Assembly (NCBI GenBank): GCA_019694515.1
Contig: JAIBBU010000007.1
Coordinates: 6,573 to 70,572, forward strand
From: Oligoflexia bacterium
GTDB lineage: Bacteria; Bdellovibrionota_C; UBA2361; JBGSMV01
Direction: 5' to 3'
DNA: 64,000 nucleotides
Part shown: positions 2,054 to 61,545 of the stretch, piece after piece
How the letters are laid out: each line of letters starts with the position of its first letter
Position numbering within the stretch: position 1 is the first letter of the stretch
Translations under genes and position numbers: made by a program
The notes under the pieces: model-generated
Told to the model about the DNA's origin: nothing
The model's input: the letters and a program-made list of their open reading frames with translations, nothing else
Databases searched by the model: none

Positions 2054-2207
2054 GCGGGCGTTATTGTAGTCCGGCTTTGCGCAGTTTGTAATGTTGAAAA
2101 TGCAGCTCCGGATAGAGGGGCCTCAATTAAACGGATTGTTAGAACGGCAACCCTCTGTTAGTTTCAAAATGCTGTATTGTAAAAAGTTGATTGGTTCAGA
2201 GGCCCCT

Positions 2208-3893
2208 ATGAAATTCGGTTTGCGACTAGCTATTAGTCTATGTGCTTTGCTTGGGTTAGCTCCGCTAGAACTCGCGGCCATAACGATCGATCACTTTAAC
2301 GACAATCAGTTCGTTCAAACCCCGCCCTCCCCAACGCAGGGCACCCTTACCCCTGTAACTGCCCTTGGCGGGAGCCGGAAGATCCAAGCTAATAAGACCG
2401 TGGGTATTGGTCGGGTGAGCGGGGAGGTGTTCCTTGATACCTCGGTTTCTCCCAGTGTCGGCGCTTACTTTCATTCCCAGGACGCCGGCGTGAGCGGTGA
2501 TACCACGCTGATTTATGATGGCACCGTGGGACCCAGTTTAGACGGCGATGGGCTCGGCGGAATAGATTTTACTCGCGATGGCGGGTCCGCTTTTCTGCTC
2601 AAGACTTTGAACTTCAATCCGCCCGATTCAGGCGGTGTTCAAGCTAAAATCACCGTCACAAAGGCTTCGAATCCGGCGACACAGGCAAGTGTAGTATTGG
2701 CCATTACCACCTCGGGCGATCTCCTATTTCCCTTTTCCGGGTTCTTAATCGGCGGAAACCCCGCTAATCCATTTCCTTTTGCTGAGGTCGGCTCGGTACA
2801 GCTTCAGATCATCGGAGGACCCGCAGCTGATCTGGCCATTGATTGGTTCGGCACTAATGGCCGCTGCGATCTGATTCCCCTATCCTCTACCCAGGTGATC
2901 GTGGATGAGTGCGGAGTGTGCGGCGGAGACAACTCCACCTGTAAAGACTGTCTCGGAATACCAAATGGCCCCGCCCTTCCCGGTACGGCCTGCCAAACCG
3001 GGGTCAATGGACCTCCCAACTGTTCGACGAGCAGCTGGCAGCAGGTCGGTATTGCCATCCCAATTCAATGTTCCTGTACGCCAGTGCCCCAGCCTGAGAT
3101 CTGTGATGAGCTGGATAACAACTGTAACGGGCAGATCGATGAGGCCTTCCCACTCAAGGGACAGACCTGTGGTATCGGCAGCAACGGTTGCACGGCAGAA
3201 GGGACATATATCTGCAGCGAGAACGGCGGACTTTTCTGTACTGCCGAAAATCTGCAGCCCGAGGTGGACGAGTGCGAGAATTCACGTGGCTGTGATGGGG
3301 TTCCATATAGCGGGCTGGTTTACGATCAGTGTGAAGTATGCGGAGGAAACGGCACCTCTTGTTTAGACTGCGCCGGAACTCCGAATGGCATCGCCACAGT
3401 GGATAGCTGCGGGGTCTGCCAAGGAGATGGATCCACCTGTATTAGCTGTGATGAGAAGGAGAACACCGAGCACCAGGCAGCCCTAGATGGCACCGCCAAG
3501 GCGCAAGAGAAAGTGATCAAACTCGTACTTACCCGTATGCAACGAGAGTTTGGAAAGAAGCCAGGGCTGCTGCCGATGATTGAGGCTTGGAGAGACGAGA
3601 CCCACCGTTTGCAGATTAGGAACTGGATCATCTCGTGGACCCTGCCGAACATTACGGTGCAGTGCGCCAATAAGACCCCGCAGTGTATCACCACCAGCAA
3701 TGAGCCGTTGCTGACCGAGTATCGCAAGCATGCCAAAGAGCTCCGGGAGATGATGGACACGGTGTTGGCCAAATACCGGCAGCTTCTACGCAAGCGCAAG
3801 TTCGGGGGAAATTACGCCAAGATGGCTGAGAAGCTCTATCAACAAGGGCTGACCCTTGCTAATAGCTTCGCTCTTACGCAGGACGACTGTTGA
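2208..3893 (+). CDS. Secreted cysteine-rich repeat protein (three D-x-C-G/E-V-C-G/Q-G-D/N-x-S/T-x-C repeats plus a MopE-like C-D-x-x-D-N-N-C-x-G-x-x-D-E motif)
   Basis: The ORF track starts at 2091, but the signal peptide MKFGLRLAISLCALLGLAPLELAA begins at the ATG at 2208. Repeats: DECGVCGGDNSTC, DQCEVCGGNGTSC, DSCGVCQGDGSTC. ICDELDNNCNGQIDEAF resembles the putative metal-binding (MopE-type) motif common in myxobacterial and planctomycete secreted proteins. Confidence 0.65.
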   Translation: MKFGLRLAISLCALLGLAPLELAAITIDHFNDNQFVQTPPSPTQGTLTPVTALGGSRKIQANKTVGIGRVSGEVFLDTSVSPSVGAYFHSQDAGVSGDTTLIYDGTVGPSLDGDGLGGIDFTRDGGSAFLLKTLNFNPPDSGGVQAKITVTKASNPATQASVVLAITTSGDLLFPFSGFLIGGNPANPFPFAEVGSVQLQIIGGPAADLAIDWFGTNGRCDLIPLSSTQVIVDECGVCGGDNSTCKDCLGIPNGPALPGTACQTGVNGPPNCSTSSWQQVGIAIPIQCSCTPVPQPEICDELDNNCNGQIDEAFPLKGQTCGIGSNGCTAEGTYICSENGGLFCTAENLQPEVDECENSRGCDGVPYSGLVYDQCEVCGGNGTSCLDCAGTPNGIATVDSCGVCQGDGSTCISCDEKENTEHQAALDGTAKAQEKVIKLVLTRMQREFGKKPGLLPMIEAWRDETHRLQIRNWIISWTLPNITVQCANKTPQCITTSNEPLLTEYRKHAKELREMMDTVLAKYRQLLRKRKFGGNYAKMAEKLYQQGLTLANSFALTQDDC

Positions 3894-5036: not shown

Positions 5037-5207
5037 CAGATATTTTGCTGAAGGCTTTCAGCCTATTCCAATTATCGTGATACCACCAATTCAATTTACA
5101 TGTGCTGGTTACAGAGCGCTGTGGCTACATAGCGCTCTGATCTACAACATGATCTGGCTTTGGCTGTTGGTATAAGATACGACTTATTAGACAGGTAGGA
5201 AACACAT

Positions 5208-5810: not shown

Positions 5811-5874
5811 ACAGATAGGCTACGCGCGGCTCTGTCATTGCTGTAGATGTTACATATTTCGAGGACAATAATTC

Positions 5875-5924
5875 TGTCATTGCGAACCCGAGCTTGGCGA
5901 GGGTGAAGCAAACCCTAACATTAG
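5875..5924 (+). repeat. Interspersed repeat unit, forward copy (core ctgtcattgcga(a/g)c ... gcaaaccctaacatta)
   Basis: Shares both conserved termini with the copies at 6049-6118, 42837-42871, 43020-43053 and 43186-43220. Confidence 0.7.
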
Positions 5925-6048
5925 GTCGATGTAGGCTTTGTCTCTAGATAATAGTAAAAGTTTCCTACGAGCAGTAGGACTACGGCTTTTGGCTGGAAAA
6001 TGTGCAGAAAATTCGCCTAACTTTTTCAGTCCAGAGACCATTACGACT

Positions 6049-6118
6049 TAATGTTAGGGTTTGCCCGCCTCCGCTCATGCTACGGCGTGACAGGCTTTCG
6101 CGCCGCTCGCAATGACAG
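6049..6118 (-). repeat. Interspersed repeat unit, inverted copy with expanded middle
   Basis: Its reverse complement reads ctgtcattgcgagc...gcaaaccctaacatta. It forms an inverted pair with 5875-5924 around a spacer of about 124 bp, so the whole looks like a roughly 245-bp MITE-like element. Confidence 0.7.
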
Positions 6119-6251
6119 ATCAAAGCGCCGTTGCAGGACCGTAACGCCCGCGATGACACCTTTAAGCATTGCGGTATTAGTTTGCATGAGCGCAATCATG
6201 CAGAACCCCCCAGTTAGCGCCGTATAGTACCTCCAAATCGATGGAGGCATA

Positions 6252-6524
6252 ATGAAGCACAAACAGTTTAGAATAACGACGATCTTTGCTCTAGGGCTGC
6301 TGGTAATAACACCAATGCTGAGCGGGTGCGCAGGTCATAAGACCACCACCGAAACGACTACTGAGGTGCGGCATGATCTGGACGCACCACCCTACGATGG
6401 CGGTACTACCGTTGAAACCACCAAGATCGAACAGGTGACAAAAGATGATAATCACAAAGGCTTCTTTGGCATCATCGGAGATATTTTAGCGCTGCCTTTT
6501 CGCGCGATCGGATCGATTCTTTAA
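6252..6524 (+). CDS. Small lipoprotein (signal peptide plus LSGC lipobox)
   Basis: MKHKQFRITTIFALGLLVITPMLSGC..., then a Thr/Glu-rich mature region. GGAGG ribosome-binding site 5 nt upstream. Confidence 0.6.
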   Translation: MKHKQFRITTIFALGLLVITPMLSGCAGHKTTTETTTEVRHDLDAPPYDGGTTVETTKIEQVTKDDNHKGFFGIIGDILALPFRAIGSIL

Positions 6525-21237: not shown

Positions 21238-22824
21238 TCAGGTCACTTCTTCGGCTGGTTCGCCAGCGGAGTTGTCATCCTCGAGGGAGCTGGCCGGCTC
21301 CGGAATGGGAATATGGCCGTGCTGCACAGTAGTGCGCTGTTCCCGACTGGATTCAAACTCAAACTCGTATTCGTCGGCCCTCAAGCGGCCGTCTGCCAGG
21401 ACAAAAATCTTGGCGCCATAGTGGGTTTCAAGCTCATTTAGGTCGCGTTTCTTGCTATTCAGGAGAAAAAGCGCAGCGCCGGGTGCTAAACGTGCCTTGA
21501 CCAGGCTGACGTGCCCAACAATGATCCCCGATTGGATCTTACGCAGGGCTTCCAAAGCTACCAGCTCCGGATTACGGATCCTCCCCGTTCCCTGACATTC
21601 AGAACAATCCAGATGGCTCTGGCTGGTTAAGGCGCCCCGCAGCCTTTGCCGGGACATCTCTAGCAGACCGAACTTGGAAAGCCTGCCGATCTCGATCCGG
21701 GCCTTATCGGTCTTGATCGCTTCTCTCAGACGGCGCTCTACCCCCGCTTTGTGGCGTCGGTCGGTCATATCGATGAAATCCACCACGATCAGTCCGCCCA
21801 AATCGCGCAACTTTAGCTGTCTAGCGATCTCGTCGGCCGCTTCGAGGTTGGTCTTGTAGGCTGTTTCTTCGATACTGCCCTCATTGGTAGCCTTTCCAGA
21901 GTTAACATCTATAGCTACGAGCGCTTCCAGCGAGTCAATCACTATGGCGCCGCCCGATCGAAGCTTAACCTCAGGCTTGAAGGTCTCAAGAACCTGTTCC
22001 TCGATCCGGTGATGCGCCAAGAGCGGCTGCTTGTCCTTGTAAAGTACAACGCGCGAACGATATCGCGGCATTACCTCATCCACGAAGGCGCGCACACGCT
22101 TAAATGTCTCGACGTCATCGATCAAGATCTCGCGGATCTCAGGGGTAAAATAGTCGCGGATGACGCGGGTGGCTAAGTCACTCTCTTTATAAAGCAGCGC
22201 TGGGCAGCTGGCGTTCTGCGAATCATTGGTGATCCGCTCCCACAGCTTTAGCTGCAAGGAGAGGTCCCGTCCTAAGTCACTGAGTGAACGATCCAGCCCG
22301 GCGGTACGTATGATCATGCCGACCCCGGCGGGCATCTCCAGCTCCTGAGCCAGCTTCTTTAGCCGTTTGCGCTGCTCGGAATCACTAATTTTTCGCGAAA
22401 TTCCGCCGCGTTCGCTGCCTGGCATAACCACCAGGTAACGTCCCGGAAGCGAAAGGTAGGTTGTCAGGGTCGCGCCCTTAAGGTCACGCTCCTCCTTGAC
22501 TACCTGTACTACCAGCTCCTGACCGGGCTCCAAGACATCCTGGATCCGGACCCGATAGCCACGCCCCGTCTCTCGCGAGCTAGAGCGGAAATAGGCGGGG
22601 TGTACGTCGTTAATCTGGAGAAAGCCGTTACGCTGGGTCCCGATATCGAGAAAGGCCGCCTGAAGACTAGGCTCGATTCTGGAAATTCGAGCCTTATAAA
22701 TATTCCCTTTTAGTTTGCGCCCGAGATCGGATTCGATCTCAAGTTCAACCAAACTGGAACCTTCGGTAATTGCGATCCTGATCTCTTCCGGATGGACCGC
22801 ATTGATGAGCATGCGCCGATCCAT
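21238..22824 (-). CDS. rng: Ribonuclease E/G family endoribonuclease (RNase G-like: S1 domain plus catalytic core, no scaffold tail)
   Basis: S1 domain (GNIYKARISRIEPSLQAAFLDIG); DNase-I-like catalytic region (LVAIDVNSGKATNEG...GGLIVVDFIDM). 528 aa, the size of RNase G. Confidence 0.9.
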   Translation of the reverse strand: MDRRMLINAVHPEEIRIAITEGSSLVELEIESDLGRKLKGNIYKARISRIEPSLQAAFLDIGTQRNGFLQINDVHPAYFRSSSRETGRGYRVRIQDVLEPGQELVVQVVKEERDLKGATLTTYLSLPGRYLVVMPGSERGGISRKISDSEQRKRLKKLAQELEMPAGVGMIIRTAGLDRSLSDLGRDLSLQLKLWERITNDSQNASCPALLYKESDLATRVIRDYFTPEIREILIDDVETFKRVRAFVDEVMPRYRSRVVLYKDKQPLLAHHRIEEQVLETFKPEVKLRSGGAIVIDSLEALVAIDVNSGKATNEGSIEETAYKTNLEAADEIARQLKLRDLGGLIVVDFIDMTDRRHKAGVERRLREAIKTDKARIEIGRLSKFGLLEMSRQRLRGALTSQSHLDCSECQGTGRIRNPELVALEALRKIQSGIIVGHVSLVKARLAPGAALFLLNSKKRDLNELETHYGAKIFVLADGRLRADEYEFEFESSREQRTTVQHGHIPIPEPASSLEDDNSAGEPAEEVT

Positions 22825-42103: not shown

Positions 42104-42460
42104 CTATTTCTTATCGAGCACAGAAAGAAATTCAGCGACCTTAAAAGGTTTTTGTAAGTAAAGATCGGCGTGCACAGATTGGTCGAGCACCATCGGTGAA
42201 TCGGAATTTGCAGAGAGCATAATCACTGGGACACCGGCTGTGCGCGTATTTTGTCTGAGCTGCTTCAGTACGTCGATGCCATTCATGCCCGGCATTTGAA
42301 GATCGAGAATCAGGACATCAGGGAGCGCATTGTCCATGCTGTGCAGGCAGTCTTCGCCCTTTTCAAAGGCTTCCACCGTGTGGCCGGCACTCTCCGCGAT
42401 ATCACTAATCAGGGTGCGAATCACCGGATCATCGTCAACTATCATGATTTTCTTGGTCAT
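42104..42460 (-). CDS. CheY-like single-domain response regulator
   Basis: IMIVDDD...DVLILDLQMPGMNG...LQKP. 118 aa. Confidence 0.85.
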   Translation of the reverse strand: MTKKIMIVDDDPVIRTLISDIAESAGHTVEAFEKGEDCLHSMDNALPDVLILDLQMPGMNGIDVLKQLRQNTRTAGVPVIMLSANSDSPMVLDQSVHADLYLQKPFKVAEFLSVLDKK

Positions 42461-42836
42461 CTTTGCACCTTAATTTCCTATGGCTATATCGGAAGATTTC
42501 TGAGGAATCTTGAATGCTGAAGTTTTGAGGGGCTGATTGCGGCGGTGCTGCATTTGAAGGGGGAAACATGGCCTTGGGAGAAGCGGCGTAAGGTTTATAC
42601 ATACGGGACTGCCGGAGGTTGGAGGAGCAGCTAATTGCTAACGGCGTCGGACTTTGGATGGGTATGGGGCCTGGTAGTTCTCCGATTCGAGCATGAAGTT
42701 CCGGCCAGTGCGCTTGGTCCGTCCTTGCGAGCGGAGCGAAGTAATCTAAGATTTTGCCTGGCAGTGCAAACACCCTGCGATGGGGGGAGGGGAACACGCT
42801 TCCGATCATAACTGGGTAAAATAGAGCGTGCCTCAG

Positions 42837-42871
42837 TGTTAGGGATTGCTTCGCTCTGCTCGCAATGACAG
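42837..42871 (-). repeat. Interspersed repeat unit (compact 35-nt copy, inverted)
   Basis: gtgttagggattgcttcgctctgctcgcaatgacag is the reverse complement of the ctgtcattgcgagc...gcaatccctaacac core. Confidence 0.7.
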
Positions 42872-43019
42872 AGAATCTGTTCTCGAATTGCGTAACTCGT
42901 ACAGCAATGACAAAACAGAGCACAAGACGAACGGTTTTCGTGCTCGAAACCGGGGAAAGCTTTAATTGCCGATATTTCATATTTCGACAACGGAATAATC
43001 GCCACCAATCCGGACGGCT

Positions 43020-43053
43020 CCGTCATTGCGAGCGAAGCGAAGCAAACCCTAAC
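43020..43053 (+). repeat. Interspersed repeat unit (forward copy)
   Basis: ccgtcattgcgagcgaagcgaagcaaaccctaac. Confidence 0.7.
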
Positions 43054-43185
43054 TTTAAGTCGAAATGAACGCTCTATTGAAGAAGCTAGGGGAATTTCCT
43101 GTGCATATTCCAGTCATTGGCGGTAGCTTGCATGCTTGTAAGAAGTTTTTGCAATTACCAAAGAACAAAGCCTCCTTCGGTACAA

Positions 43186-43220
43186 TGTTAGGGATTGCTT
43201 CGCTCTGCTCGCAATGACAG
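43186..43220 (-). repeat. Interspersed repeat unit (inverted copy, near-identical to 42837-42871)
   Basis: tgttagggattgcttcgctctgctcgcaatgacag. Forms an inverted pair with 43020-43053 around a spacer of about 130 bp. Confidence 0.7.
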
Positions 43221-47921: not shown

Positions 47922-49424
47922 ATGCAAAGAACCAGACAGATCAATCTTCATGAAATTGCGGACGAGGCTTTGCGGGAGCGCGGACTGCGTACCGATTTCT
48001 CGGCGGAGGCCAAGCGCCAGGCGGCCGCAGTAGAACTTCCCGATTTCTCAGCATTGAAGATCCCCGATCTTTCTGCACTACCGTGGTCATCCATCGATAA
48101 TGATGATTCCAAGGATCTTGACCAGGTCGAGTGTGCGACGGTTGAGGGTAAACGTACCCGAATTCTTGTTGGAATTGCCGATGTTGCGGCCGTAATCCCT
48201 AAGGACAGTCCCCTCGATCAGCACGCCCGTAATAACACCACCTCAGTGTATACAGGGGTGCAGACCTATCCGATGCTGCCGCCGCGGCTCTCAACTGATT
48301 TAACCTCGCTGAATGAGTCGGAAAAGCGCCTGGCGGTAGTGATTGAGGCGGTGGTTTCAAAAGAAGGAGAAGTCGAAAGCTTCAAGGTGTATCCGGCGAT
48401 TGTGCAGAATAAAGCGCAGCTCACCTATGAGGCGGTGGCAGCCTGGTTAGAAGATCATCAGCCGGCGGATTCTGAAATTACTCAGCGGATGCTGGAGAAG
48501 ATCCGTGCCAACCCCGAACTACAAGCACAATTAAAGATTCAGGACGAAGCGGCGCAGGCCTTGCGCCGGAATCGGCATGAGAACGGGGCGCTGGTTTTTG
48601 GAACGCAACAACTTCGGCCAACGATCGAACCAGATGGCTCTATTCACCTGGCTGCGCAGAAATCCAATCGCGCCACGCAGCTAATCGAGGAGTTCATGGT
48701 AGCGGCAAACCAGTCGGTTTTGGAATATTTGGACTCTAAGGGCTACCCGGATCTCGAACGAATCGTCCGCGAGCCGGAAAGGTGGCAGCGTATGGTGGAG
48801 CTCGCTGCGGAGCACGATGGCGATCTTCCGGCGCAACCAGATGGTAAAGCTTTGGCTAAGTTTCTAGTGAGTCAGGAGCGTAAAGATCCCGATCGTTTTC
48901 CGGATCTGTCACTGGCCATGATTAAATTGATGGGTCGGGGCGAATATGTAATGAAGGCACCGGGTCAGAAAGGTGAGGGCCACTTTGGATTGGCGGTACC
49001 TGGTTACGGGCACACGACTGCACCCAATCGGCGCTTTCCCGACCTGATTAAGCAGCGCATTCTGCATGCTGCATTTGAAGGCAAGAAATCTCCCTATAAC
49101 AGAGCGGAGCTGCAGGAACTGGCAACGCGATGCTCCATGATGGAGCAAGCTGCCAGCAAAGCAGAGCGACAGGTGCATAAGAGCATCGCTGCCCTGGCGC
49201 TGCAGGATCGCATCGGCGAGAAGTTCTCAGGATTCATCACCGGTGCCGGTGAAAAGGGCGTTTGGGTGCGCATTGCCAATCCGCCTGTGGAAGGCAAGGT
49301 TGAAGGACTGACCGCTGGCCTAAAGGTCGGCGACCAGGTCGAGGTGCGGCTGCTCAGCACCAATGTGGAGCGCGGTTATATCGATTTCGGGGTGGTAGAT
49401 TTTGGCAAGCGGCGCCGTCGTTAA
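47922..49424 (+). CDS. RNase II/R family 3'-5' exoribonuclease (RNB domain plus C-terminal S1), lacking N-terminal cold-shock domains
   Basis: RNB motif I SIDNDDSKDLDQ. C-terminal S1 (FSGFITGAGEKGVWVRIANPPVEGKVEGL). 500 aa. Confidence 0.8.
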   Translation: MQRTRQINLHEIADEALRERGLRTDFSAEAKRQAAAVELPDFSALKIPDLSALPWSSIDNDDSKDLDQVECATVEGKRTRILVGIADVAAVIPKDSPLDQHARNNTTSVYTGVQTYPMLPPRLSTDLTSLNESEKRLAVVIEAVVSKEGEVESFKVYPAIVQNKAQLTYEAVAAWLEDHQPADSEITQRMLEKIRANPELQAQLKIQDEAAQALRRNRHENGALVFGTQQLRPTIEPDGSIHLAAQKSNRATQLIEEFMVAANQSVLEYLDSKGYPDLERIVREPERWQRMVELAAEHDGDLPAQPDGKALAKFLVSQERKDPDRFPDLSLAMIKLMGRGEYVMKAPGQKGEGHFGLAVPGYGHTTAPNRRFPDLIKQRILHAAFEGKKSPYNRAELQELATRCSMMEQAASKAERQVHKSIAALALQDRIGEKFSGFITGAGEKGVWVRIANPPVEGKVEGLTAGLKVGDQVEVRLLSTNVERGYIDFGVVDFGKRRRR

Positions 49425-49561
49425 AGGCGATTGGTCCGCGGCATTGGGCGATCCGTGACAAGTTTTCGGGTTCCCATCCGCGTGTTCCAAATTCTATTAT
49501 AAGCCTATTTGGCGCATCGCCTGCTGTGTGCAGGCCTGTGTCGGTATCTGAGTAGGCAGCA

Positions 49562-51667
49562 ATGAATCTATTAGCTCTATTCTTTGTGCTCGCGGCAATT
49601 TTTTGGTGCGCGGGCTTGCCGGCCTTCGAGTTTGCAGTGGGCGTCATGCTGCTTACTCCGATTATAGCTTATTTGGTGCAGCTGCAGTTTGGGGCCTTTC
49701 TTTGGGTTCACTTTCTAATCATGGCGCTGCTGATCGTCGCAGCCTATTTCTCGGTACCGCGCCGCCGGGAGCTGGCGAAGAGGCGCGAGCTAAAGCAGCT
49801 CTTTCCGTGCGGCATATTCGCTCTGGCATATCTGATTCTACTTTCTTTGTGTTTGCGCTGGCCCGACTTCATTGCGATGGGGGAGCGGCTTCGTGACTAT
49901 GCCATCCTGGGGTCAAGCGTGCTTGACCCCGTGCATATCAAGGAGCCCTGGATGTCAGGGGCATTGCTCTATTACTATGCCTATTGGTACCGCTTTGGCG
50001 CCATGCTGAGCACGGCTTTGGCCATGCCGGTATGGAGCACCTACCACGCTCTGGTTGCCTTTAGCTTGGCGCTGTATTTCACCTGTGCTTTTCTAATTTT
50101 TCAACGTCATTTGGGATTCAAGAGTGCCAGTGCGCTCTTTGCTGCACTATTGGTGGCGATCGGATCCAATGTTGAGGGCATGCTCAATTTCTTTCGTTCC
50201 GACAGCAATTGGTGGGGGCCTTCACGGGTAATTCCTGGAGCAATTAACGAATTTCCCGCCTGGTCTTTTCTGCTCGGCGATTTACATCCGCATTATCTGA
50301 ATCTTTGTTTCTTTCCGCTAATCTTGCTGCTTTTTTTGGAAGTCGCGAACCATTCTGCAATTCACATCCAGTTACGTCCTTCCCCCCAAAAGGTTTTGTT
50401 TTACGGGGCGCTGATCCTGATCCCCCCGCTTTGGCTCTATAATGCCAACGCTTGGGAGGTTCCAATGTGGCTCGGGCTCGTTGGAATCTTCGGACTGCTC
50501 CTCTTGGTTTCAACTCGCGGACGGATGTTCAGCATTGGCTATCGCCTCCTCCCGCATTTACGAACATTTGTCACGCCGGCGAGTCTTTTAATTGCCGGTT
50601 TAATCTTGCTGACTGCGGTCTCGCTGCTCCTCTCCTGGCCTTCAATACCCGGCGGAACTGAAAGCAAGTTTAGTTTAGTGCGTGATCCGATTCAGCGCTC
50701 GCATTCATGGAATCTAGTGCAGCATTGGGGATTACCGCTCGCCCTAATTGCAATATCTACAATCATGCTCATTCCCGATCTTAGCTGGCGCTGGCTGGGG
50801 GGCGCGTTTCTGGCGGGATCGCTGCTATTTGAGGATGGTTTGACGTTTCTTTATCTGCTGTTGTTTCTGAATTTGCTGCGTTTGATTCCTATTTTCGGAC
50901 TGGGAGCGACAAAGGCCAAACACCCCGACACCAAGAACTTGCTTTTTAATGCGGTTGGGCTCTGGAGCATCATGCTTTTGATCATACCAGAGCTGGTGTT
51001 CTTGGACGATGCATACGGCGGTGAAAACGAGCGCATGAATACGATCTTTAAGATCTACACCACCGACTGGTTCTTGCTGTACTGCTTTGCGTTCTACTTA
51101 ACGGCGCGCGCATTTGCAGCCTGGATTTCTACGGCCCATCGCCAGCGCGTCCTCCGCGTCGGTCAGGGCATCTTAGCAATCTGCTTGATCGGTTTTTTTG
51201 TACACACCGCCCGTGAGCTAAGACCCACAGTGGATCGAGCAGATGACGTGCCGACGGAGGAGGGGCTTTCGACTGTCCAAAAACTCTTCCCGGGGTCCAG
51301 CGAAACGATACGATATCTGCGCGGTTTGCCTCCGGGGGTCGTACTCGAGGCCCAGGGAAATCCCTACGATTACACCACTTTCGTGAGCACCTTGGCGAAT
51401 CACCAGAGCTTCCTTGGATGGGCCAATCACGTGGAGCTACTGACGCGGCAATACGCCGAGGTGCGGCGTCGGGATAAGTTGACCGAGGAGCTTTATCGCG
51501 AGGGTGATTGCTCCAACAAGGCCGCGGGGCTGCGTCGTGAGGGTATCGAGTATCTGGTTTACGGCAGTCTAGAGAAGCGCAAGTACCACGGAGTTGATGC
51601 CGCGAGCTTTGGATGTTTAAAGACGCTCTTTAGTTCGGGGGACTATACTCTGTACGGACTACCGTAA
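49562..51667 (+). CDS. Large polytopic membrane protein, DUF2298 (Chlor_Arch_YYY, TIGR03662-like)
   Basis: GALLYYYAYWYRFGAML is the YYY motif. 701 aa with more than 12 TM. Confidence 0.7.
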   Translation: MNLLALFFVLAAIFWCAGLPAFEFAVGVMLLTPIIAYLVQLQFGAFLWVHFLIMALLIVAAYFSVPRRRELAKRRELKQLFPCGIFALAYLILLSLCLRWPDFIAMGERLRDYAILGSSVLDPVHIKEPWMSGALLYYYAYWYRFGAMLSTALAMPVWSTYHALVAFSLALYFTCAFLIFQRHLGFKSASALFAALLVAIGSNVEGMLNFFRSDSNWWGPSRVIPGAINEFPAWSFLLGDLHPHYLNLCFFPLILLLFLEVANHSAIHIQLRPSPQKVLFYGALILIPPLWLYNANAWEVPMWLGLVGIFGLLLLVSTRGRMFSIGYRLLPHLRTFVTPASLLIAGLILLTAVSLLLSWPSIPGGTESKFSLVRDPIQRSHSWNLVQHWGLPLALIAISTIMLIPDLSWRWLGGAFLAGSLLFEDGLTFLYLLLFLNLLRLIPIFGLGATKAKHPDTKNLLFNAVGLWSIMLLIIPELVFLDDAYGGENERMNTIFKIYTTDWFLLYCFAFYLTARAFAAWISTAHRQRVLRVGQGILAICLIGFFVHTARELRPTVDRADDVPTEEGLSTVQKLFPGSSETIRYLRGLPPGVVLEAQGNPYDYTTFVSTLANHQSFLGWANHVELLTRQYAEVRRRDKLTEELYREGDCSNKAAGLRREGIEYLVYGSLEKRKYHGVDAASFGCLKTLFSSGDYTLYGLP

Positions 51668-51685
51668 TTTAAACTGGAGGTGCTC

Positions 51686-52441
51686 ATGGTTGCGCAGGTG
51701 GAACTTAGACCGCTGCGAGTTGTCGAGATCCTGGATCGTGCTTTCAAAGTAGTGAAGGAGAATCTGCAAGCTCTGATGACTCTTGCTTTGATCCCGGCCG
51801 TCTTTACGGCAGCCTCGCATGTAGTTGGCCCAGATCACATCGGCTTGATGATGTTGTTCGGGATATTGGGCGCTATCGCAGGATTGTATATTAACCTGCT
51901 TTATCTGTTCATTCTTGCAGACGGCTGGCACGGCAGCCCTAGTTCTATCAGCAGCGCACGTGAAAGGACCACTTTTGGATTGGCGGTTCGATGGTGTCTC
52001 TTGTCGGTCTGGGTGGCAATTATCGGCGGGCTGCTTTTGCTTCTATTGATCATTCCGGGTTTGATCTACCTCGTTAATCGCACTCTGGCTTATACCGTTC
52101 TTGTGCTGGAAGGATGCAGCATTTCTGAGGCGCTAAGTAACAGCAAGATGCTGATGACCGGGGAGCGCTGGTATAAGCTTAGTAGTCCTACGATGCGCTT
52201 GGGAGGCCTCTGGATAATCTTGATGGTTATTTGGCTTACCGGGTATGTTTTGATAGGGGCCTTAGCGGTGCCGTTCATCTCGGAAGCGGGAATTGTGAGC
52301 GGCATTGCGCAGGGAGCCCAGGTGTTCTTTCAATCGGTGCTCTCGTGCTTCGGGATAGCGGCCTTGATCGGTTTTTATTACGACTTGCGAAATCGATATG
52401 AGGGTCATGATCTGAGCCAACAAATCAGCCAACTCTCCTGA
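51686..52441 (+). CDS. Hypothetical polytopic membrane protein
   Basis: Start at the ATG at 51686, with GGAGG 5 nt upstream. Six to seven TM. Confidence 0.55.
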   Translation: MVAQVELRPLRVVEILDRAFKVVKENLQALMTLALIPAVFTAASHVVGPDHIGLMMLFGILGAIAGLYINLLYLFILADGWHGSPSSISSARERTTFGLAVRWCLLSVWVAIIGGLLLLLLIIPGLIYLVNRTLAYTVLVLEGCSISEALSNSKMLMTGERWYKLSSPTMRLGGLWIILMVIWLTGYVLIGALAVPFISEAGIVSGIAQGAQVFFQSVLSCFGIAALIGFYYDLRNRYEGHDLSQQISQLS

Positions 52442-53175
52442 TGCGCGGGCTTTTTTGGCTGATTATAGTGGTAGCGCTGGGGTGCTCGGCAGCATTGGCT
52501 GAAAGGCTGCCACCGGACGGGTCACAAAAGCTTACCCAAATTCTTTCTGCTCCGGAGTTTCAACCGCGCTCGGTCAACCCTGGCTGGCGTGAGCGTTTGG
52601 GACAGTACCTGATGCACCAAGCGCAGGAATTTCTCAATCGGATCGAAGATTGGGGTCGCAATAATGCCATCGATTCCTGGCTGCCGCAGGGTCTGAGGAA
52701 CTTTCTGGGTAATTTGGCCGCGATGCTAAAACAGCTGGGGGAGCTGCTCGGCGCTCTGGCGCAAACTTTGGTGCTCGTGCTCTTGCTTGCAGCACTCTGG
52801 ATCTTTGCTCGAATTGCGTATTCATATCTGCGCCCATATTTCCAAGAGTCCGGCAACATCGCGCCGCTGGGGGAAGAGCGCGCGGAGCTTACTGCGGCCA
52901 ACTTAAATGCCTATCTGAGCGCCGGGCAATACTCGGCGTTACTGGAAGGTTTACGGCTAATTTTGCGAGGCCAGTTCGAAAGACGCTATGCTCTTCAGAG
53001 CGGAATGACGGACCGTGAAATGCTAGGCGCCGCGCCCCGCGGACTTGCTGCCTTGGAGCTTTTCCGGGACGCGAGCTTGCTCTTCGAGCAGCGCGCCTTC
53101 GAGGGTGGCACTCTCGATGCTGATGCGGTCGTAAGCTTATTTGGACGATTTTGTAGAATCGCAGATCGGCCGTGA
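52441..53175 (+). CDS. DUF4129-like protein (MoxR-operon associated, N-terminal signal/TM)
   Basis: Position immediately upstream of the DUF4350-like, MoxR and DUF58 genes. One internal TM. TGATG overlap with the upstream gene. Family assignment from context and architecture. Confidence 0.5.
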   Translation: MRGLFWLIIVVALGCSAALAERLPPDGSQKLTQILSAPEFQPRSVNPGWRERLGQYLMHQAQEFLNRIEDWGRNNAIDSWLPQGLRNFLGNLAAMLKQLGELLGALAQTLVLVLLLAALWIFARIAYSYLRPYFQESGNIAPLGEERAELTAANLNAYLSAGQYSALLEGLRLILRGQFERRYALQSGMTDREMLGAAPRGLAALELFRDASLLFEQRAFEGGTLDADAVVSLFGRFCRIADRP

Positions 53176-54326
53176 AGAAACGATATGTCGCGCTGATTGT
53201 TGTAGCCCTGCTGTTAATGCTGCTGGGGCCTCTGTTTCAAAAGCCTGCAGCGCCAACTTCATTTGCCGCAAATCCCCCGGGCGCTAAAGCATTCTTCTTG
53301 TTTTTGAGCCAAGTTGGAACGCCGGTCGAGCAATGGCTCTATCCTTTTAAAGATCTCGTTCGAGCGCCGCAGGGTTCCGTTCTCATTCTGGCAGCACCAA
53401 TTACTCCCGTCGCGGGGCATCAGGGGCTGCTTGATTGGGTCAGGAAGGGAAATACTCTAGTGCTTCTCGATGACCAGAAGAATTCGATCTTTGATGCTCT
53501 TGACCTCGAATGGAAAGCGGCTGAAGGACGGCAGTTACTGATGCAAGCAGCAGGCTTCGCTGACCAGGGCGTGCCCGTCAACTGTAGCGGAGAATTCAAT
53601 TCGATCTGCGAAGGGGTGCGCTTAATCAGCACACCGCTGGGACATTTCGAAACGGTCCCAGCGGGCGCTCAGATCTTGGCAGGAACAACCGGCAATGCGT
53701 TGGCCGTCGGTATGGCGCTAGATCGGGGCAAGCTGTTCGCCTTTCCAGGGCCCGAACCGCTGCTTAATTCGAATATCGATAAATTCGATAATTTACGCTT
53801 GCTCTTTCAGATCGTATCGAGCGGCAAGCGCATCCTGATCGATGAGTTTCATCATGGATTCACGGCACCCGTTGCGGCCGAGAATGCTGCACGCTGGGAT
53901 TCGATTTTGATGCTGAGCGGTTATCTAACGCTGCTGCTGGTCCTGGCAGCCCTCAGTCGATCTGTGCGCTTTGGACCGCCGACGCCGGAGCTGCCCGCGC
54001 CGCACTCATCCAGCGTGCAGTTTACCCAGGCCCTCGGTTTGCTGTATGCCGAGAACGGAGCGCAGGATATGCTGAAATACTACCGCGCAGCGTGGAGATC
54101 GAGATTGCAGCGTGCTTTCGGAATCCCCACCAGTCTTGCTCACAGCAGTGCGGTTGAGGAGCTCTTGCACCGCCGGCTGCTGAACGCGGCCTCGGCAGCG
54201 GCTATTATTAGGACATCCAAAGCGATTGATGCAGGCGCACCTCTGGAAGCCTCGCAGCTTCAGGCGCTGGAGAGAATTTTCACAAGTTCGGGAGAGATAA
54301 ATGCAAGACCGGGAGATCATCAGTAA
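53172..54326 (+). CDS. DUF4350-like protein (MoxR-operon associated)
   Basis: N-terminal TM. Conserved ILIDEFHHG motif. Internal TM before the C-terminal domain. GTGA overlap with the upstream gene. Confidence 0.55.
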   Translation: MKKRYVALIVVALLLMLLGPLFQKPAAPTSFAANPPGAKAFFLFLSQVGTPVEQWLYPFKDLVRAPQGSVLILAAPITPVAGHQGLLDWVRKGNTLVLLDDQKNSIFDALDLEWKAAEGRQLLMQAAGFADQGVPVNCSGEFNSICEGVRLISTPLGHFETVPAGAQILAGTTGNALAVGMALDRGKLFAFPGPEPLLNSNIDKFDNLRLLFQIVSSGKRILIDEFHHGFTAPVAAENAARWDSILMLSGYLTLLLVLAALSRSVRFGPPTPELPAPHSSSVQFTQALGLLYAENGAQDMLKYYRAAWRSRLQRAFGIPTSLAHSSAVEELLHRRLLNAASAAAIIRTSKAIDAGAPLEASQLQALERIFTSSGEINARPGDHQ

Positions 54327-55284
54327 TTTAACAACCAAGGTAGTGACGCAGATTGGCGAGACCGTGCTTGGTCAAGCCAAGGTAAGCGAGCTGCTGTTCG
54401 GAGCGCTCTTGATTGGCGGTCATGTGCTGCTTGAGGGGCCTCCGGGGGTGGCCAAGACGCTATTGGCGCGCTGTTTTGCAGAAACTCTCGGACTTAGCTT
54501 TCGCCGTATCCAATTCACACCGGACTTGATGCCCTCTGATATCACCGGGGTGAATGTGTTCGATCGGGAAAGTTCGACCTTCAGATTCGCACCCGGTCCG
54601 CTCTTCGCGGACATTGTTTTAGCCGATGAGATTAATCGCACTCCCCCCAAGACGCAGGCGGCGCTGCTTGAGGCCATGGAGGAACATCGTGTGACTGTGG
54701 ATGGAAAGCCCTATGAGCTGGGTGAACTTTTTACCGTTGTAGCAACGCAAAATCCAATTGAAATGGAGGGGACCTTTCCATTACCGGAAGCACAGCTGGA
54801 CCGCTTCTTGTTCAAGCTCCAGATTTCTTATCCCGACAAGACAGCGGAACAGCAGATGTTGGAGCGATTTAGTTCCGAACCGCAGCTCAGAAGCTTGCAG
54901 CCCAGTCCCGAGCGGAGTCCTGGCCGGGCTGGCTTGCAGTTAAGTGACCTGCTAGAAGCGCGCGCTGCTTTGCGGCGGGTACGGCTGGCTCCAGCGATCT
55001 CCGATTATGTGCTGCGATTGGTCAGCGCCACCCGTACCCACGGCGCCCTCGAACTGGGCGCTAGTCCCCGCGCCGGACTCGGACTGGCCTTGGCTGCTAA
55101 GCTTAGCGCGGCGCTAGAGCGGCGTGACTTTGTGATCCCGGACGATGTGAAGAAAGTTGCGCGCCCAGTACTGCTGCACCGCCTCATTCCGAAGAGCGAC
55201 CTATACGATTCCGCTGACGGAGTAGAATCGGTTTTGGATCAGCTCCTAAAGACTACCCCAGTGCCTTCAAAGGTGGAGGGGTAA
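54301..55284 (+). CDS. MoxR-family AAA+ ATPase
   Basis: Walker A GPPGVAKT. ...ADEINRTPPKTQAALLEAMEE (Walker B/sensor). Typical MoxR length of 327 aa. Confidence 0.9.
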   Translation: MQDREIISNLTTKVVTQIGETVLGQAKVSELLFGALLIGGHVLLEGPPGVAKTLLARCFAETLGLSFRRIQFTPDLMPSDITGVNVFDRESSTFRFAPGPLFADIVLADEINRTPPKTQAALLEAMEEHRVTVDGKPYELGELFTVVATQNPIEMEGTFPLPEAQLDRFLFKLQISYPDKTAEQQMLERFSSEPQLRSLQPSPERSPGRAGLQLSDLLEARAALRRVRLAPAISDYVLRLVSATRTHGALELGASPRAGLGLALAAKLSAALERRDFVIPDDVKKVARPVLLHRLIPKSDLYDSADGVESVLDQLLKTTPVPSKVEG

Positions 55285-55291
55285 TGCGCAG

Positions 55292-56656
55292 ATGAAAAAG
55301 AACCCCCGACAGGCGCTGTTGTTGCCGCTGCTGACGGTTAGAGGGGTCACATTCCTGGCAGTTGGTTTGATCTTTCCGCTGCTTGGGGTCGCCTTGGATC
55401 TGCCGTTCAATGCAGTCGTCACGCTCTGCAGTCTTTGGCTGGTGCTCGCGTTGGTGCTCTTTGGAAGCGAGTGGCTCAAACTCAGCCGCACAGTTCAGGC
55501 GCTCAAGGTACGGCTGACCCTCCCCGGCCGGCTGCCCGCGCTAAAGGCGATCAACGCGGAGGTGCAGGTGGAGAGCCGTGTCAGCTCGGACGCCACCGAA
55601 TTGATGCTGAGATTCGCACCGGTTACAGGAGTGCGCTTCGTGCAGCCGCAGCTAAACTTCATGCTTCAACGCCGCGGTACCCTGGTCTCGCAGCCGCTGC
55701 AGATACGGCCGATCATGCGGGGCAGCGTGGAGATCGTCAACTTCGACGTGCGCGCTCGGCTGAGGCGGGGCCATCTCACTGTTCAGACGGCGTTGCGACT
55801 AGAACCAGGGGTGAGAACTGTCGTCACTCCGGCCTCCGACGGCAACGACCGTCGAATTAGACGTAGCGCGATTAAATATATCTCCGGTAACCGTCTCTTT
55901 CATTATAATGCGGGGGAGGGGCGTGAATTTGATTCTCTAAAATACTACTCGCCCGGAGAAGATCTGCGCCGGGTTGACTGGAAGCGCAGTGCGCGCAGTG
56001 ATGCGCTGCTTGTGCGACTGTATCGTCCTGAATCACACCAGCGTGTAATGATCGCCATCGATTGTAGCCGCCGGATGTCAACCCGCGTGGGGGAACGTCT
56101 CTATCTAGACTATGCCGCTGATGCTGCCGCGCATCTGGTTCAGACGGCCTACCGCTGTTCGGACCAGGTCGGCCTTTTGGCTTTTGATCATAGGCGCCTT
56201 TGCTTTCGTCCCTGTGCTCAGGGGGCCGCGCATGCCGGCAAGCTGCTTGAAGAACTGACCTCCATTCAGCCGGGAGACTTTGAGGCGGACTATCAGATTG
56301 TGGCGCAGTGTGCAGCAGCGTTGCGCCGGCGCACGATGCTGGTATTGATCACTAGTGTTTCCAATAGTGCAGCAGTCGAGAGTTTGTGCGCCAGTTTAAC
56401 ACGGCTAAAGAAGAAACATCTGCCGCTAGTGCTGGCGATCGCCGATCGTGACCTGATCGCGCTGAACAGCGAGCCGGCGCGTAGCATCGAGGAAGCTTTC
56501 ATCATCAGCGCTGCTAACCAGCAGATCACAGGGTTACGCACCCGACTAAACGGGCTGGCCCGTCAGGGTATCGAATGCGCATACGGCGATGCGCTTGAAC
56601 TGGAATCTTTGCTTGAACGGCGCTATTTCCAATTAAAGCTCGGCGGCCGGCTCTAA
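55292..56656 (+). CDS. DUF58 (vWA-like) protein, MoxR partner
   Basis: DLRRVDWKRSARSDALLVRLYRPESHQRVMIAIDCSRRM is the DUF58 signature. N-terminal TM pair. Confidence 0.8.
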   Translation: MKKNPRQALLLPLLTVRGVTFLAVGLIFPLLGVALDLPFNAVVTLCSLWLVLALVLFGSEWLKLSRTVQALKVRLTLPGRLPALKAINAEVQVESRVSSDATELMLRFAPVTGVRFVQPQLNFMLQRRGTLVSQPLQIRPIMRGSVEIVNFDVRARLRRGHLTVQTALRLEPGVRTVVTPASDGNDRRIRRSAIKYISGNRLFHYNAGEGREFDSLKYYSPGEDLRRVDWKRSARSDALLVRLYRPESHQRVMIAIDCSRRMSTRVGERLYLDYAADAAAHLVQTAYRCSDQVGLLAFDHRRLCFRPCAQGAAHAGKLLEELTSIQPGDFEADYQIVAQCAAALRRRTMLVLITSVSNSAAVESLCASLTRLKKKHLPLVLAIADRDLIALNSEPARSIEEAFIISAANQQITGLRTRLNGLARQGIECAYGDALELESLLERRYFQLKLGGRL

Positions 56657-56753
56657 AGATACAATAAATCGCCGCTAGTAGTTGCCGCACCAGCATCTTC
56701 GTATATATATATAGCAATAAGATGTTGTGCCGATCGTCGTTCCATAGAGGGGC

Positions 56754-59533: not shown

Positions 59534-59588
59534 CTCTAGGCTACTATAACCGCGTGCCGAGGCGTACTCGTTATCCTTTAAATCGAGC

Positions 59589-61541: not shown

Positions 61542-61545
61542 GGTA

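What the first reader, a model, noticed from the sequence alone, without database searches (positions are those of the whole stretch)
5831..6118. MITE-like element: inverted pair of repeat units with conserved termini around a 124-bp core
The units at 5875-5924 (forward) and 6049-6118 (inverted) share the termini ctgtcattgcgagc and gcaaaccctaacatta but have different middles. A further partial ctgtcattgc lies at 5831-5840. The same termini recur three times at 42.8-43.2 kb, which makes this a dispersed repeat family. It may be a REP/MITE-type element, with possible effects on transcription termination or mRNA stability of the flanking FMN-reductase and lipoprotein genes.
Basis: seen in the sequence. 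Interest (0 to 1): 0.6.

Follow-up and report, generated by a model that had tools for sequence, protein, structure and literature searches.

The report
Paired Ssn-type hairpin repeats (CGTC-REPs)
The reported element is real, but it is an ordinary member of a known, very widespread family of bacterial hairpin repeats: the "CGTC-tagged REPs", which are the binding and cutting sites of small GIY-YIG single-stranded-DNA nucleases called Ssn.

Summary
The window carries five clear repeat units and three degenerate ones, with the design (C/T)GTC-ATTGC-GAG-[variable hairpin]-GCAA(T/A)-CCCTAAC. They form three inverted pairs with the GTC tags outermost: 5874-6118, 42719-42871 and 43020-43220. The first and third pairs also share their ~125-bp spacer (about 75% identity). 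The same unit occurs in dozens of phyla. In 86 loci from genomes and metagenomes, a ~95-aa single-domain GIY-YIG gene sits between two inverted units: 67/79 have a unit upstream, 72/84 downstream and 60/77 both. This architecture is already published. Di Nocera 2013 described CGTC-tagged REPs, mostly head-to-head dimers with no known transposase. Chenal 2025 described Ssn nucleases that bind NTS/SRM hairpins as single-stranded DNA and cut just upstream, with an SRM-ssn-SRM gene layout. The suggested IS200/IS605-RAYT partner is wrong: the partner family is GIY-YIG. No ssn gene lies in the ~72 kb of host DNA (an Oligoflexia MAG) that I could read, so activity in this genome is untested. The ATTGCGAG unit type does not fit the published SRM search string. 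Verdict: new member of a known kind, low to moderate interest.

The parts
5829..5873 (+).
   Evidence: Matches the reverse complement of 42872-42921 (I2, 74%) and a third copy on ENA contig L161. The other two copies read GTCA(T/C)TGC...GCAAT-T, which is unit-like.
5874..5923 (+). Unit U1: cTGTC tag, ATTGC...GCAAa stem, distal hairpin CCC-GA-GC-TTG-GC-GA-GGG, tail CCCTAACATTA
5924..6048 (.). 125-bp spacer/core of head-to-head dimer A; its ends are complementary (AGGTCG...CGACTT)
   Evidence: About 75% identical to the spacer of dimer B2 in reverse complement (I1 and 10). I18 gives 21-nt arms at 95%. No GIY-YIG remnant by HMM.
6049..6118 (-). Unit U2 (inverted), with a 42-nt distal insert between the conserved ends
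   Evidence: (D2, D3).
42719..42750 (+). Degenerate unit U6 (CCGTCCTTGCGAGCGGAGCGAAGTAATCTAAG), left half of dimer B1
   Evidence: (2 mismatches) and I11.
42837..42871 (-). Unit U3 (short form, GC-AGA-GC loop), right half of dimer B1
   Evidence: D2.
42872..42921 (-). Second copy of the diverged unit/module, next to the head of U3
   Evidence: I2.
43020..43057 (+). Unit U4 (short form GCGAAGC mini-hairpin), left half of dimer B2
   Evidence: I3, I4.
43058..43184 (.). 127-bp spacer/core of dimer B2, homologous to core A in reverse complement
   Evidence: I1.
43185..43220 (-). Unit U5, right half of dimer B2 (97% identical to U3 over 38 nt)
   Evidence: D2.

Best explanation
The units are hairpin repeats of the CGTC-tagged REP superfamily, that is, Ssn-related motifs (SRM/NTS-like). 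Each has an unpaired (C/T)GTC tag, a stem that starts with AT (ATTGC/GCAAT), a purine-rich internal loop, a distal hairpin of variable length, and a C-rich tail. In the window they are arranged as three head-to-head dimers with the tags outermost. Two of these dimers share a conserved ~125-bp spacer, so each dimer is a 200-245-bp composite repeat comparable to Neisseria NIMEs. Shown here: in other genomes the same unit type brackets a ~95-aa single-domain GIY-YIG gene, as unit(+) - gene - unit(-). Taken from the literature: Ssn nucleases bind such hairpins only as single-stranded DNA, in one orientation, and cut a few nucleotides upstream of the tag. Inferred for this window: a cognate Ssn encoded elsewhere in the host genome, or formerly present, recognises these units whenever the DNA is single-stranded (replication, repair, incoming DNA). 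A head-to-head dimer then offers one cleavable site on each strand, just outside each end. The gene-less dimers are most likely non-autonomous derivatives of the SRM-ssn-SRM element, or are amplified by it. Any effect on the neighbouring FMN-reductase and lipoprotein genes would be secondary.
For: The repeat is statistically real. The whole composite is repeated. As ssDNA the composites fold into long hairpins (z -7.8 and -5.1). The unit occurs in 70 loci across many phyla, mostly as tag-outward pairs. In L066 a GIY-YIG ORF (Pfam PF01541, E 3.8e-15) lies between inverted units, and its upstream unit has the same GCAATCCCTAAC tail as the window units. The protein has 2707 homologues that stay 60-70% identical across phyla. 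Flanking units were seen in Paceibacterota, Nitrospirota, Anaerolineales and Thermodesulfovibrio. Across 86 loci, a unit head lies within 200 nt upstream in 67/79, an inverted head within 150 nt downstream in 72/84, and both in 60/77; the background is 0.67 heads per kb. The stem covaries: ATTGC/GCAAT 357/393, ATTCC/GGAAT 21/28, ATCGC/GCGAT 11/14, ATTCT/AGAAT 10/12, against a control of 10/677. One orthologous pair shows a compensatory change. Literature: CGTC REPs have a CGTC or TGTC tag, a stem starting with AT, a 3-nt tail, mostly HH dimers (HH = tags outside) with conserved spacers, and no transposase (PMC3733652). For Ssn/NTS, the 3 nt upstream of the palindrome control cleavage, the C just after the palindrome controls binding, and the gene layout is NTS-ssnA-NTS (PMC11893778). 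The invariant Y8, Y19 and E66 of alignment A1 have the same spacing as the SsnA catalytic mutants Y6, Y17 and E64.
Against: No ssn/GIY-YIG gene was found in the window or in about 8 kb of extra host DNA, so a cognate nuclease in this Oligoflexia MAG is unproven. The published SRM search string gives 0 hits in the window and fails on ATTGCGAG-type units. The stem is interrupted (5 bp plus an internal loop), unlike the 8-9-bp stems of described CGTC REPs. Three of the five clear units have GCAAA instead of GCAAT, which breaks the terminal A-T pair, and the two composites are only ~75% identical, so these copies may be old and inert. I could not compare A1 directly with N. meningitidis SsnA or with cd10448; membership rests on size, single-domain architecture, flanking hairpins and residue spacing. 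Mobility of the dimers has not been demonstrated anywhere. No target-site duplication is visible, and no clean empty site was found.
Confidence: 0.75

Rival explanations
1. REP/REPIN elements mobilised by a RAYT (IS200/IS605-type Y1 HUH transposase).
For: Inverted doublets of short hairpins with a spacer look like REPINs (PMC3116915 and PMC3337134, listed). They are intergenic and show no target-site duplication.
Against: The tag is CGTC/TGTC, not GTAG. Di Nocera 2013 found RAYT association only for GTAG REPs (Table 1). In 86 loci the flanked gene is GIY-YIG, not Y1_Tnp. No ORF family other than common ones recurs next to the units in 70 loci.
Confidence: 0.04
2. A classical MITE: a deletion derivative of a DDE-transposase insertion sequence that shares its terminal inverted repeats.
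For: It has terminal inverted repeats of 35-70 nt, a size of 200-245 bp, a conserved core between two copies and a dispersed distribution.
Against: No target-site duplication at any of the three dimers (flanks read). No DDE transposase lies between such ends in any of about 150 loci. The ends are identical across phyla and contain a covarying hairpin, which points to structure-specific recognition.
Confidence: 0.05
3. Primarily an RNA-level element (terminator, mRNA stabiliser, processing site or small RNA) selected for its effect on the flanking genes.
For: It lies downstream of ORFs in two co-directional gene pairs. The composite could fold into a long hairpin. Di Nocera 2013 argues that many REPs are transcribed.
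Against: There are no Rfam matches, even in permissive mode. Single units fold no better than shuffles. There is no U-tract and no terminator-like site at the units. Units occur in both orientations and even inside ORFs. SsnA binds ssDNA, not RNA. This reading does not exclude the main explanation as a side effect.
Confidence: 0.1
4. Integron attC-like or other recombinase sites, suggested by the CCCTAAC...GTTAGGG resemblance to R''/R' core sites.
For: CCCTAAC/GTTAGGG is close to RYYYAAC/GTTRRRY. The middle is variable and the ends are conserved (sequence only).
Against: The units alternate in orientation instead of forming a co-oriented cassette array. No integrase lies nearby. The first base of the core does not fit. 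The association is with GIY-YIG genes.
Confidence: 0.01

Closest known systems
Ssn-related motifs (SRM) / Neisseria Transformation Sequence (NTS) with SsnA GIY-YIG ssDNA nucleases (Chenal et al., Nat Commun 2025, PMC11893778)
   Same: An oriented hairpin repeat: (C)GTC tag, a palindrome that starts with AT and ends with AT, then C. Inverted copies flank a ~94-aa single-domain GIY-YIG gene. Hundreds of gene-less copies lie in intergenic DNA. The family is spread across phyla.
   Different: The window's stem is ATTGC/GCAAT, interrupted by a GA/GAA internal loop, and carries an expandable distal hairpin of 3 to more than 40 nt. NTS has a perfect ATTCCCGC/GCGGGAAT stem with a 3-nt loop. The published degenerate SRM string does not match the window units. 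No ssn gene was seen in the available host DNA. No biochemistry exists for this unit type.
CGTC-tagged REPs (Di Nocera, De Gregorio, Rocco, BMC Genomics 2013, PMC3733652); includes Neisseria dRS3 and Rickettsia RPE-4/RPE-6
   Same: CGTC or TGTC tag, stem starting with AT, short C-rich tail, predominance of HH dimers (tags outside), conserved spacers with complementary ends, location between co-directional or convergent genes, occasional intragenic copies.
   Different: The described families have 8-9-bp stems, 4-5-nt loops and 20-100-bp spacers, and were found mostly in Alphaproteobacteria. Here the stem is interrupted, the loops or inserts are longer, the spacers are 87-127 bp and the host is an Oligoflexia MAG.
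Neisseria intergenic mosaic elements (NIMEs: RS units flanked by dRS3 inverted repeats)
   Same: A 50-150-bp repeated core bracketed by inverted copies of the short hairpin repeat (my knowledge of Parkhill et al. 2000; dRS3 equated with the NTS core).
   Different: The core sequences are unrelated. The window shows only two copies of the core.
REPIN/RAYT systems (Bertels and Rainey 2011)
   Same: Inverted doublets of hairpin repeats with a spacer, presumed to be non-autonomous and served by a single-copy nuclease gene that is itself flanked by the repeats.
   Different: The tag differs (GTAG against CGTC) and so does the enzyme family (Y1 HUH transposase against GIY-YIG).

Membership tests
SRM/NTS (Ssn-associated hairpin repeats) | Unpaired (C/T)GTC directly 5' of the palindrome (controls cleavage) | tested here: met
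   All five clear units read CTGTC or CCGTC before ATTGC. The G before TCATT is nearly invariant in 71 units from other genomes, although the search pattern did not force it.
SRM/NTS (Ssn-associated hairpin repeats) | Hairpin-forming palindrome that starts with AT and ends with AT, followed at once by C (the key base for binding) | tested here: inconclusive
   U3 and U5 read ATTGC...GCAAT-C. U1, U2 and U4 read GCAAA-C, so the terminal pair is broken. The stem is only 5 bp before an internal loop. Covariation across loci supports the stem.
SRM/NTS (Ssn-associated hairpin repeats) | Inverted copies flank an ssn (single-domain GIY-YIG) gene | tested here: met
   Met for this unit type in other genomes: 67/79 upstream, 72/84 downstream, 60/77 both; L066 has the same CCCTAAC tail. 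Not testable for the host genome; no such gene in about 72 kb.
SRM/NTS (Ssn-associated hairpin repeats) | Match to the published search string HGTCWYN(0-2)YYVSBRHN(0-5)WNVSBRGN(0-2)RNCYNB | tested here: not met
   0 hits in the window. The canonical NTS matches; ATTGCGAG-, ATCCCGAG- and ATTCCGAG-type units do not. The string is an operational pattern built from 29 genomes, not a functional definition.
SRM/NTS (Ssn-associated hairpin repeats) | Bound and cut by the cognate Ssn as ssDNA only, on one strand only | not testable with these tools
   Needs biochemistry.
Ssn nuclease family (cd10448), for the GIY-YIG proteins flanked by these units | About 94-aa single-domain GIY-YIG protein with catalytic Y, Y and E, and membership of the cd10448 clade | tested here: inconclusive
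   Pfam GIY-YIG only; no NCBIfam hit. Lengths are 95-99 aa, and invariant Y8/Y19/E66 have the same spacing as SsnA Y6/Y17/E64. The closest solved structures are UPF0213 proteins 1ZG2 and 1YWL. CDD assignment and direct comparison with SsnA were not possible.
CGTC-tagged REPs | CGTC/TGTC tag, AT-first stem, 3-nt tail, HH dimers predominant, conserved spacers in HH dimers | tested here: met
   Three of three dimers in the window have the tags outside. Most pairs in 70 loci are plus-then-minus. Spacers A and B2 are about 75% identical. Stem and loop dimensions differ from the four described families.
REP/REPIN-RAYT | GTAG tag and a flanked Y1 (RAYT) gene | tested here: not met
   The tag is CGTC/TGTC. 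The flanked gene in 86 loci is GIY-YIG.
Classical MITE | Terminal inverted repeats plus a target-site duplication, and a parent IS with the same ends that encodes a transposase | tested here: not met
   Inverted ends are present, but there is no duplication at 5874/6118, 42719/42871 or 43020/43220. The only gene found between such ends is a GIY-YIG nuclease.
Rfam structured RNA families | Covariance-model match | tested here: not met
   No match at gathering or permissive thresholds.

The most novel reading that the evidence does not exclude
The 200-245-bp composites would be non-autonomous mobile elements cut out or copied by a GIY-YIG ssDNA nuclease. This would be a transposon-like system driven by an enzyme family not known to mobilise DNA in bacteria. 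A head-to-head dimer would supply one Ssn cut site per strand, just outside each end. The ATTGCGAG-type unit, with its interrupted stem and expandable distal hairpin, would define a large specificity class in Bacteroidota, Chloroflexota, Patescibacteria, Nitrospirota and Oligoflexia that the published SRM search string misses.
Probability: 0.3. Interest if true: 0.65.

Novelty: new member of a known kind. Interest (0 to 1): 0.3.

Why it matters
For this window, very little: these are ordinary copies of a known repeat family, possibly decaying, lying between genes. More generally, the check shows three things. The unit/GIY-YIG association published for Neisseria-like NTS also holds, with 78-86% occupancy, for a sequence type that the published search motif does not detect, which suggests the catalogue of Ssn/SRM pairs is under-counted outside Proteobacteria. 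These repeats generate spurious ORFs and N-terminal extensions in annotations. They also coincide with a contig divergence point in a metagenome assembly. Whether Ssn actually mobilises the repeats remains open.

Tried and rejected
- Literature search for the unit sequence returned only unrelated primers.
- Rfam found nothing, at the gathering threshold on the window and in permissive mode on the locus and on 8 foreign loci.
- Folding single units as RNA gave nothing significant.
- Clustering ORFs next to units in 70 loci to find a linked protein produced no specific family. The GIY-YIG link came from one locus with an unusually long spacer (L066).
- Testing whether the 125-bp core is a decayed GIY-YIG gene: no HMM or tblastn signal.
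- Metagenome scan for the window-specific unit/core junction CGACYTAAWGTTAGGGWTTGC: 0 hits.
- Viral contigs yielded only one GIY-YIG locus, so the family is not phage-borne.
- Extending the host sequence reached only short ENA contigs; the 112-kb NCBI contig was not retrievable.
- Two searches for a clean filled-versus-empty site both failed, because the whole intergenic region or a neighbouring gene differs (L074 against L076; Mucilaginibacter L010 against L053).
- The integron attC idea was considered from the CCCTAAC/GTTAGGG motif and rejected on orientation and context.
- Literature searches for GIY-YIG plus COG2827/UPF0213/YhbQ, hairpin/inverted-repeat terms or MITE found nothing relevant; the relevant papers came from the searches.

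Full report
OBSERVATION

Reading the sequence confirms the finding.
- U1 lies at 5874-5923 on the + strand: ctgtcattgcgaAc ... gaagcaaaccctaacatta.
- U2 lies at 6049-6118 on the - strand.
- A 125-bp spacer separates them.
- Three further units lie at 42837-42871 (-), 43020-43057 (+) and 43185-43220 (-).
- A degenerate unit lies at 42719-42750 (+).

The 14-mer head with up to 2 mismatches occurs 6 times against 0.57 expected, and none of 100 shuffles reaches 6.

- The whole of 5874-6118, core included, is homologous to the reverse complement of 43020-43220. The arms are 177 nt and 71% complementary (I1); the gapped alignment is about 75% identical.
- The 45 nt to the left of U1 contain the 'partial ctgtcattgc'. 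They recur next to U3 in reverse complement (I2, 74%).
- They recur a third time on a metagenome contig.
- In two of those three copies this module reads GTCA(T/C)TGC...GCAAT-T, so it is a diverged unit.

The window therefore holds three inverted pairs with the GTC ends outermost, and two of them have an extra tandem unit:
- A: 5874-6118
- B1: 42719-42871
- B2: 43020-43220

ANATOMY OF THE UNIT

The unit reads (C/T)GTC | ATTGC | GA | distal hairpin | G(A/T)(A/G) | GCAA(T/A) | CCCTAAC.
- In the short form the distal hairpin is GC-GAA-GC or GC-AGA-GC.
- In U1 it is CCC-GA-GC-TTG-GC-GA-GGG.
- In U2 it is a 42-nt insert.

I found 264 distinct middles in other genomes. Many of the longer ones are perfect stems closed by GAA or other GNA/GNNA loops, with a mean z of -1.6 against shuffles. 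A common subtype repeats the 'stem-GA-[GC NNN GC]-GA-stem' design, which energy models do not score.

Single units fold no better than shuffled sequence. The complete dimers fold as long hairpins as single-stranded DNA: -60 kcal/mol with z -7.8, and -41.8 kcal/mol with z -5.1.

The proximal stem covaries across loci:
- ATTGC/GCAAT: 357 of 393 heads
- ATTCC/GGAAT: 21/28
- ATCGC/GCGAT: 11/14
- ATTCT/AGAAT: 10/12
- ATCCT/AGGAT: 5/8
- ATTAC/GTAAT: 5/6
- Control (reversed 5-mer): 10 of 677

One orthologous pair of Mucilaginibacter copies differs by a compensatory change: ATCCT..AGGAT against ATTCT..AGAAT.

DISTRIBUTION

A scan of one genome per species found 70 loci with the pattern TCATTGCGAGC-N4-34-GCAAWCCCTAAC. 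The organisms include Mucilaginibacter, Bacteroidales, Chloroflexota, Planctomycetota, Patescibacteria, Alphaproteobacteria, Gemmatimonadota, Zixibacteria and others.

In those loci the units mostly come as plus-then-minus pairs 10-60 nt apart. No Rfam family matches. No neighbouring ORF family is shared across the loci.

THE PARTNER GENE

One locus, L066, had an unusually long spacer.
- It holds a 96-aa ORF with a GIY-YIG domain (Pfam E 3.8e-15).
- The ORF starts 25 nt after a + unit whose tail is GCAATCCCTAAC.
- It ends 1 nt before an inverted unit.

The protein has 2707 homologues at E <= 1e-5. They stay 60-70% identical across Bacteroidota, Chloroflexota, Paceibacterota, Nitrospirota, Thermodesulfovibrio and Ignavibacteria, and many sit on contigs shorter than 2 kb.

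Every named example I fetched is bracketed by units, including sequence variants whose stems have changed in a compensated way.

A metagenome scan with the alignment confirmed 586 of 600 candidate stretches as relatives and kept 80 loci. Over 86 loci in all:
- A unit head lies within 200 nt upstream of the start in 67 of 79 evaluable loci.
- An inverted head lies within 150 nt after the stop in 72 of 84.
- Both are present in 60 of 77.
- The background is 0.67 heads per kb further away.
- The nearest upstream unit head starts a median 61 nt before the start codon; in many loci the downstream unit follows the stop within about 15 nt, and the first downstream head ends a median 40 nt after the stop.

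WHAT IS KNOWN

Di Nocera et al. 2013 (PMC3733652) defined 'CGTC-tagged REPs'.
- The tag is CGTC, often TGTC.
- The stems start with AT.
- There is a 3-nt tail.
- Dimers are mostly 'HH', which they define as tags outside.
- HH dimers tend to have conserved spacers, often with complementary ends.
- The repeats lie between co-directional or convergent genes and are sometimes intragenic.
- No transposase is associated.
- Neisseria dRS3 and Rickettsia RPE-4/6 belong to this group.

Chenal et al. 2025 (PMC11893778) showed the following.
- The Neisseria NTS is CGTCATTCCCGCGMAVGCGGGAATCYRG.
- Related 'SRM' hairpins flank ssnA, a 94-aa single-domain GIY-YIG gene (cd10448).
- SsnA binds the hairpin only as single-stranded DNA and only in one orientation.
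- It cuts a few nucleotides upstream.
- The three nucleotides before the palindrome govern cleavage.
- The C just after the palindrome governs binding.
- In N. meningitidis the system restricts transforming DNA that carries NTS.
- The authors note that NTS-ssnA-NTS looks like an insertion sequence, and they leave mobility as a hypothesis.

The window's units map onto this design point by point: GTC tag, AT-first palindrome, C after it, tags-outward dimers and a conserved spacer with complementary ends.

The invariant Y8, Y19 and E66 of my alignment have the same spacing as the SsnA catalytic mutants Y6, Y17 and E64.

DIFFERENCES AND LIMITS

- The published degenerate SRM string finds nothing in the window. 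It fails on ATTGCGAG-, ATCCCGAG- and ATTCCGAG-type units while matching canonical NTS.
- The stem here is 5 bp followed by a purine internal loop, not 8-9 bp, and the distal hairpin can be long.
- Three of the five clear units have GCAAA instead of GCAAT.
- The two composites are only about 75% identical, so they may be old.
- The host is an Oligoflexia MAG: the RNase E/G at 21238-22824 is 100% identical to an NCBI protein of that name.
- No GIY-YIG gene is present in the window or in the roughly 8 kb of extra host DNA I could reach, so I cannot say whether a cognate nuclease exists in this genome.
- I could not run CDD or compare directly with SsnA.
- No target-site duplication flanks any dimer.
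- Neither attempt at a filled-versus-empty comparison was clean.

MECHANISM

Shown: the unit type is the flank of Ssn-like genes. The hairpin is under selection, as the covariation indicates. The dimers are repeated as whole composites.

From the literature: recognition is of single-stranded DNA, is strand-specific, and cleavage falls just outside the tag.

Inferred: in a tags-outward dimer each strand presents one cleavable unit, with the cut falling just outside that end of the dimer. This is the geometry an excision or copy mechanism would need. The gene-less dimers are probably non-autonomous relatives of the SRM-ssn-SRM element.

VERDICT

The element is a new member of a known kind (CGTC-REP/SRM), and it belongs to a sequence type that the published search motif misses. 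Interest is low to moderate.

Noticed in passing
window ~5828; L161 6329-6974: ENA metagenome contig MUNK22-1 scaffold_15702 matches the window exactly up to ~5828. It then continues with a diverged third copy of the 45-nt module and unrelated DNA. This is either an assembly chimera or a strain rearrangement exactly at the repeat.
   Followed up: partly
window 42435-42980 (-): A 181-aa ORF with no Pfam match runs through U3, U6 and the module, and is probably spurious. Likewise, ORF 6051-6227 (+) translates U2 as '...FRAARNDRSK...', and the ENA gene call 6121-6474 is an N-terminally extended version of the ORF at 6252-6524.
   Followed up: partly
database GIY-YIG proteins P0041, P0053, P0061, P0091, P0100: Over-long members (115-130 aa) carry N- or C-terminal extensions such as VIARSGFRDEAI, VIASPPTGGRSNL, HCERSEAIF, LLAMT and SLRGTK. 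These are translations of the flanking hairpin units, a recurrent annotation artefact.
   Followed up: yes
L010 1827-1890 (Mucilaginibacter sp. NFX135) and L053 ~5040-5108: A head-to-head dimer lies in frame inside a conserved 283-aa ORF (translated ...VILSDSEGSNRRQILRSAQNDK...) in both genomes, with a compensatory stem change between them. A second dimer upstream of the same gene is present only in L010.
   Followed up: partly
L072 1293-3984; L062 2118-4267; L016 3204-6304; L077: Some genomes carry units in the same orientation or in clusters: four minus-strand units in L072, direct copies 297 nt apart in L062, eight units in 3 kb in L016, and about a dozen around the GIY-YIG gene in L077. 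This differs from the usual inverted pairs.
   Followed up: no
window 2901-3441: Three copies of a 43-nt coding repeat (GTGGATGAGTGCGGAGTGTGCGGCGGAGAC...) lie inside the 600-aa ORF 2091-3893, which has a weak Cu-binding MopE match. It is probably a repeated Cys-rich domain.
   Followed up: no
window 47922-63963: A gene neighbourhood with two DUF2298 membrane proteins, PMT-type glycosyltransferases, an RDD/SpoIIM protein and a DUF58/VWA protein. FHA/YscD-like proteins and flagellar or type III export genes lie around 24-31 kb. Unrelated to the finding.
   Followed up: no
units in many loci; window U1 5886-5908: A recurrent distal-hairpin design, stem-GA-[GC NNN GC]-GA-stem, with GNA/GNNA loops. 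These are tandem G.A mismatches around a GC-clamped triloop, like the very stable DNA mini-hairpin GCGAAGC. This fits recognition as single-stranded DNA (the stability statement is from my own knowledge).
   Followed up: partly
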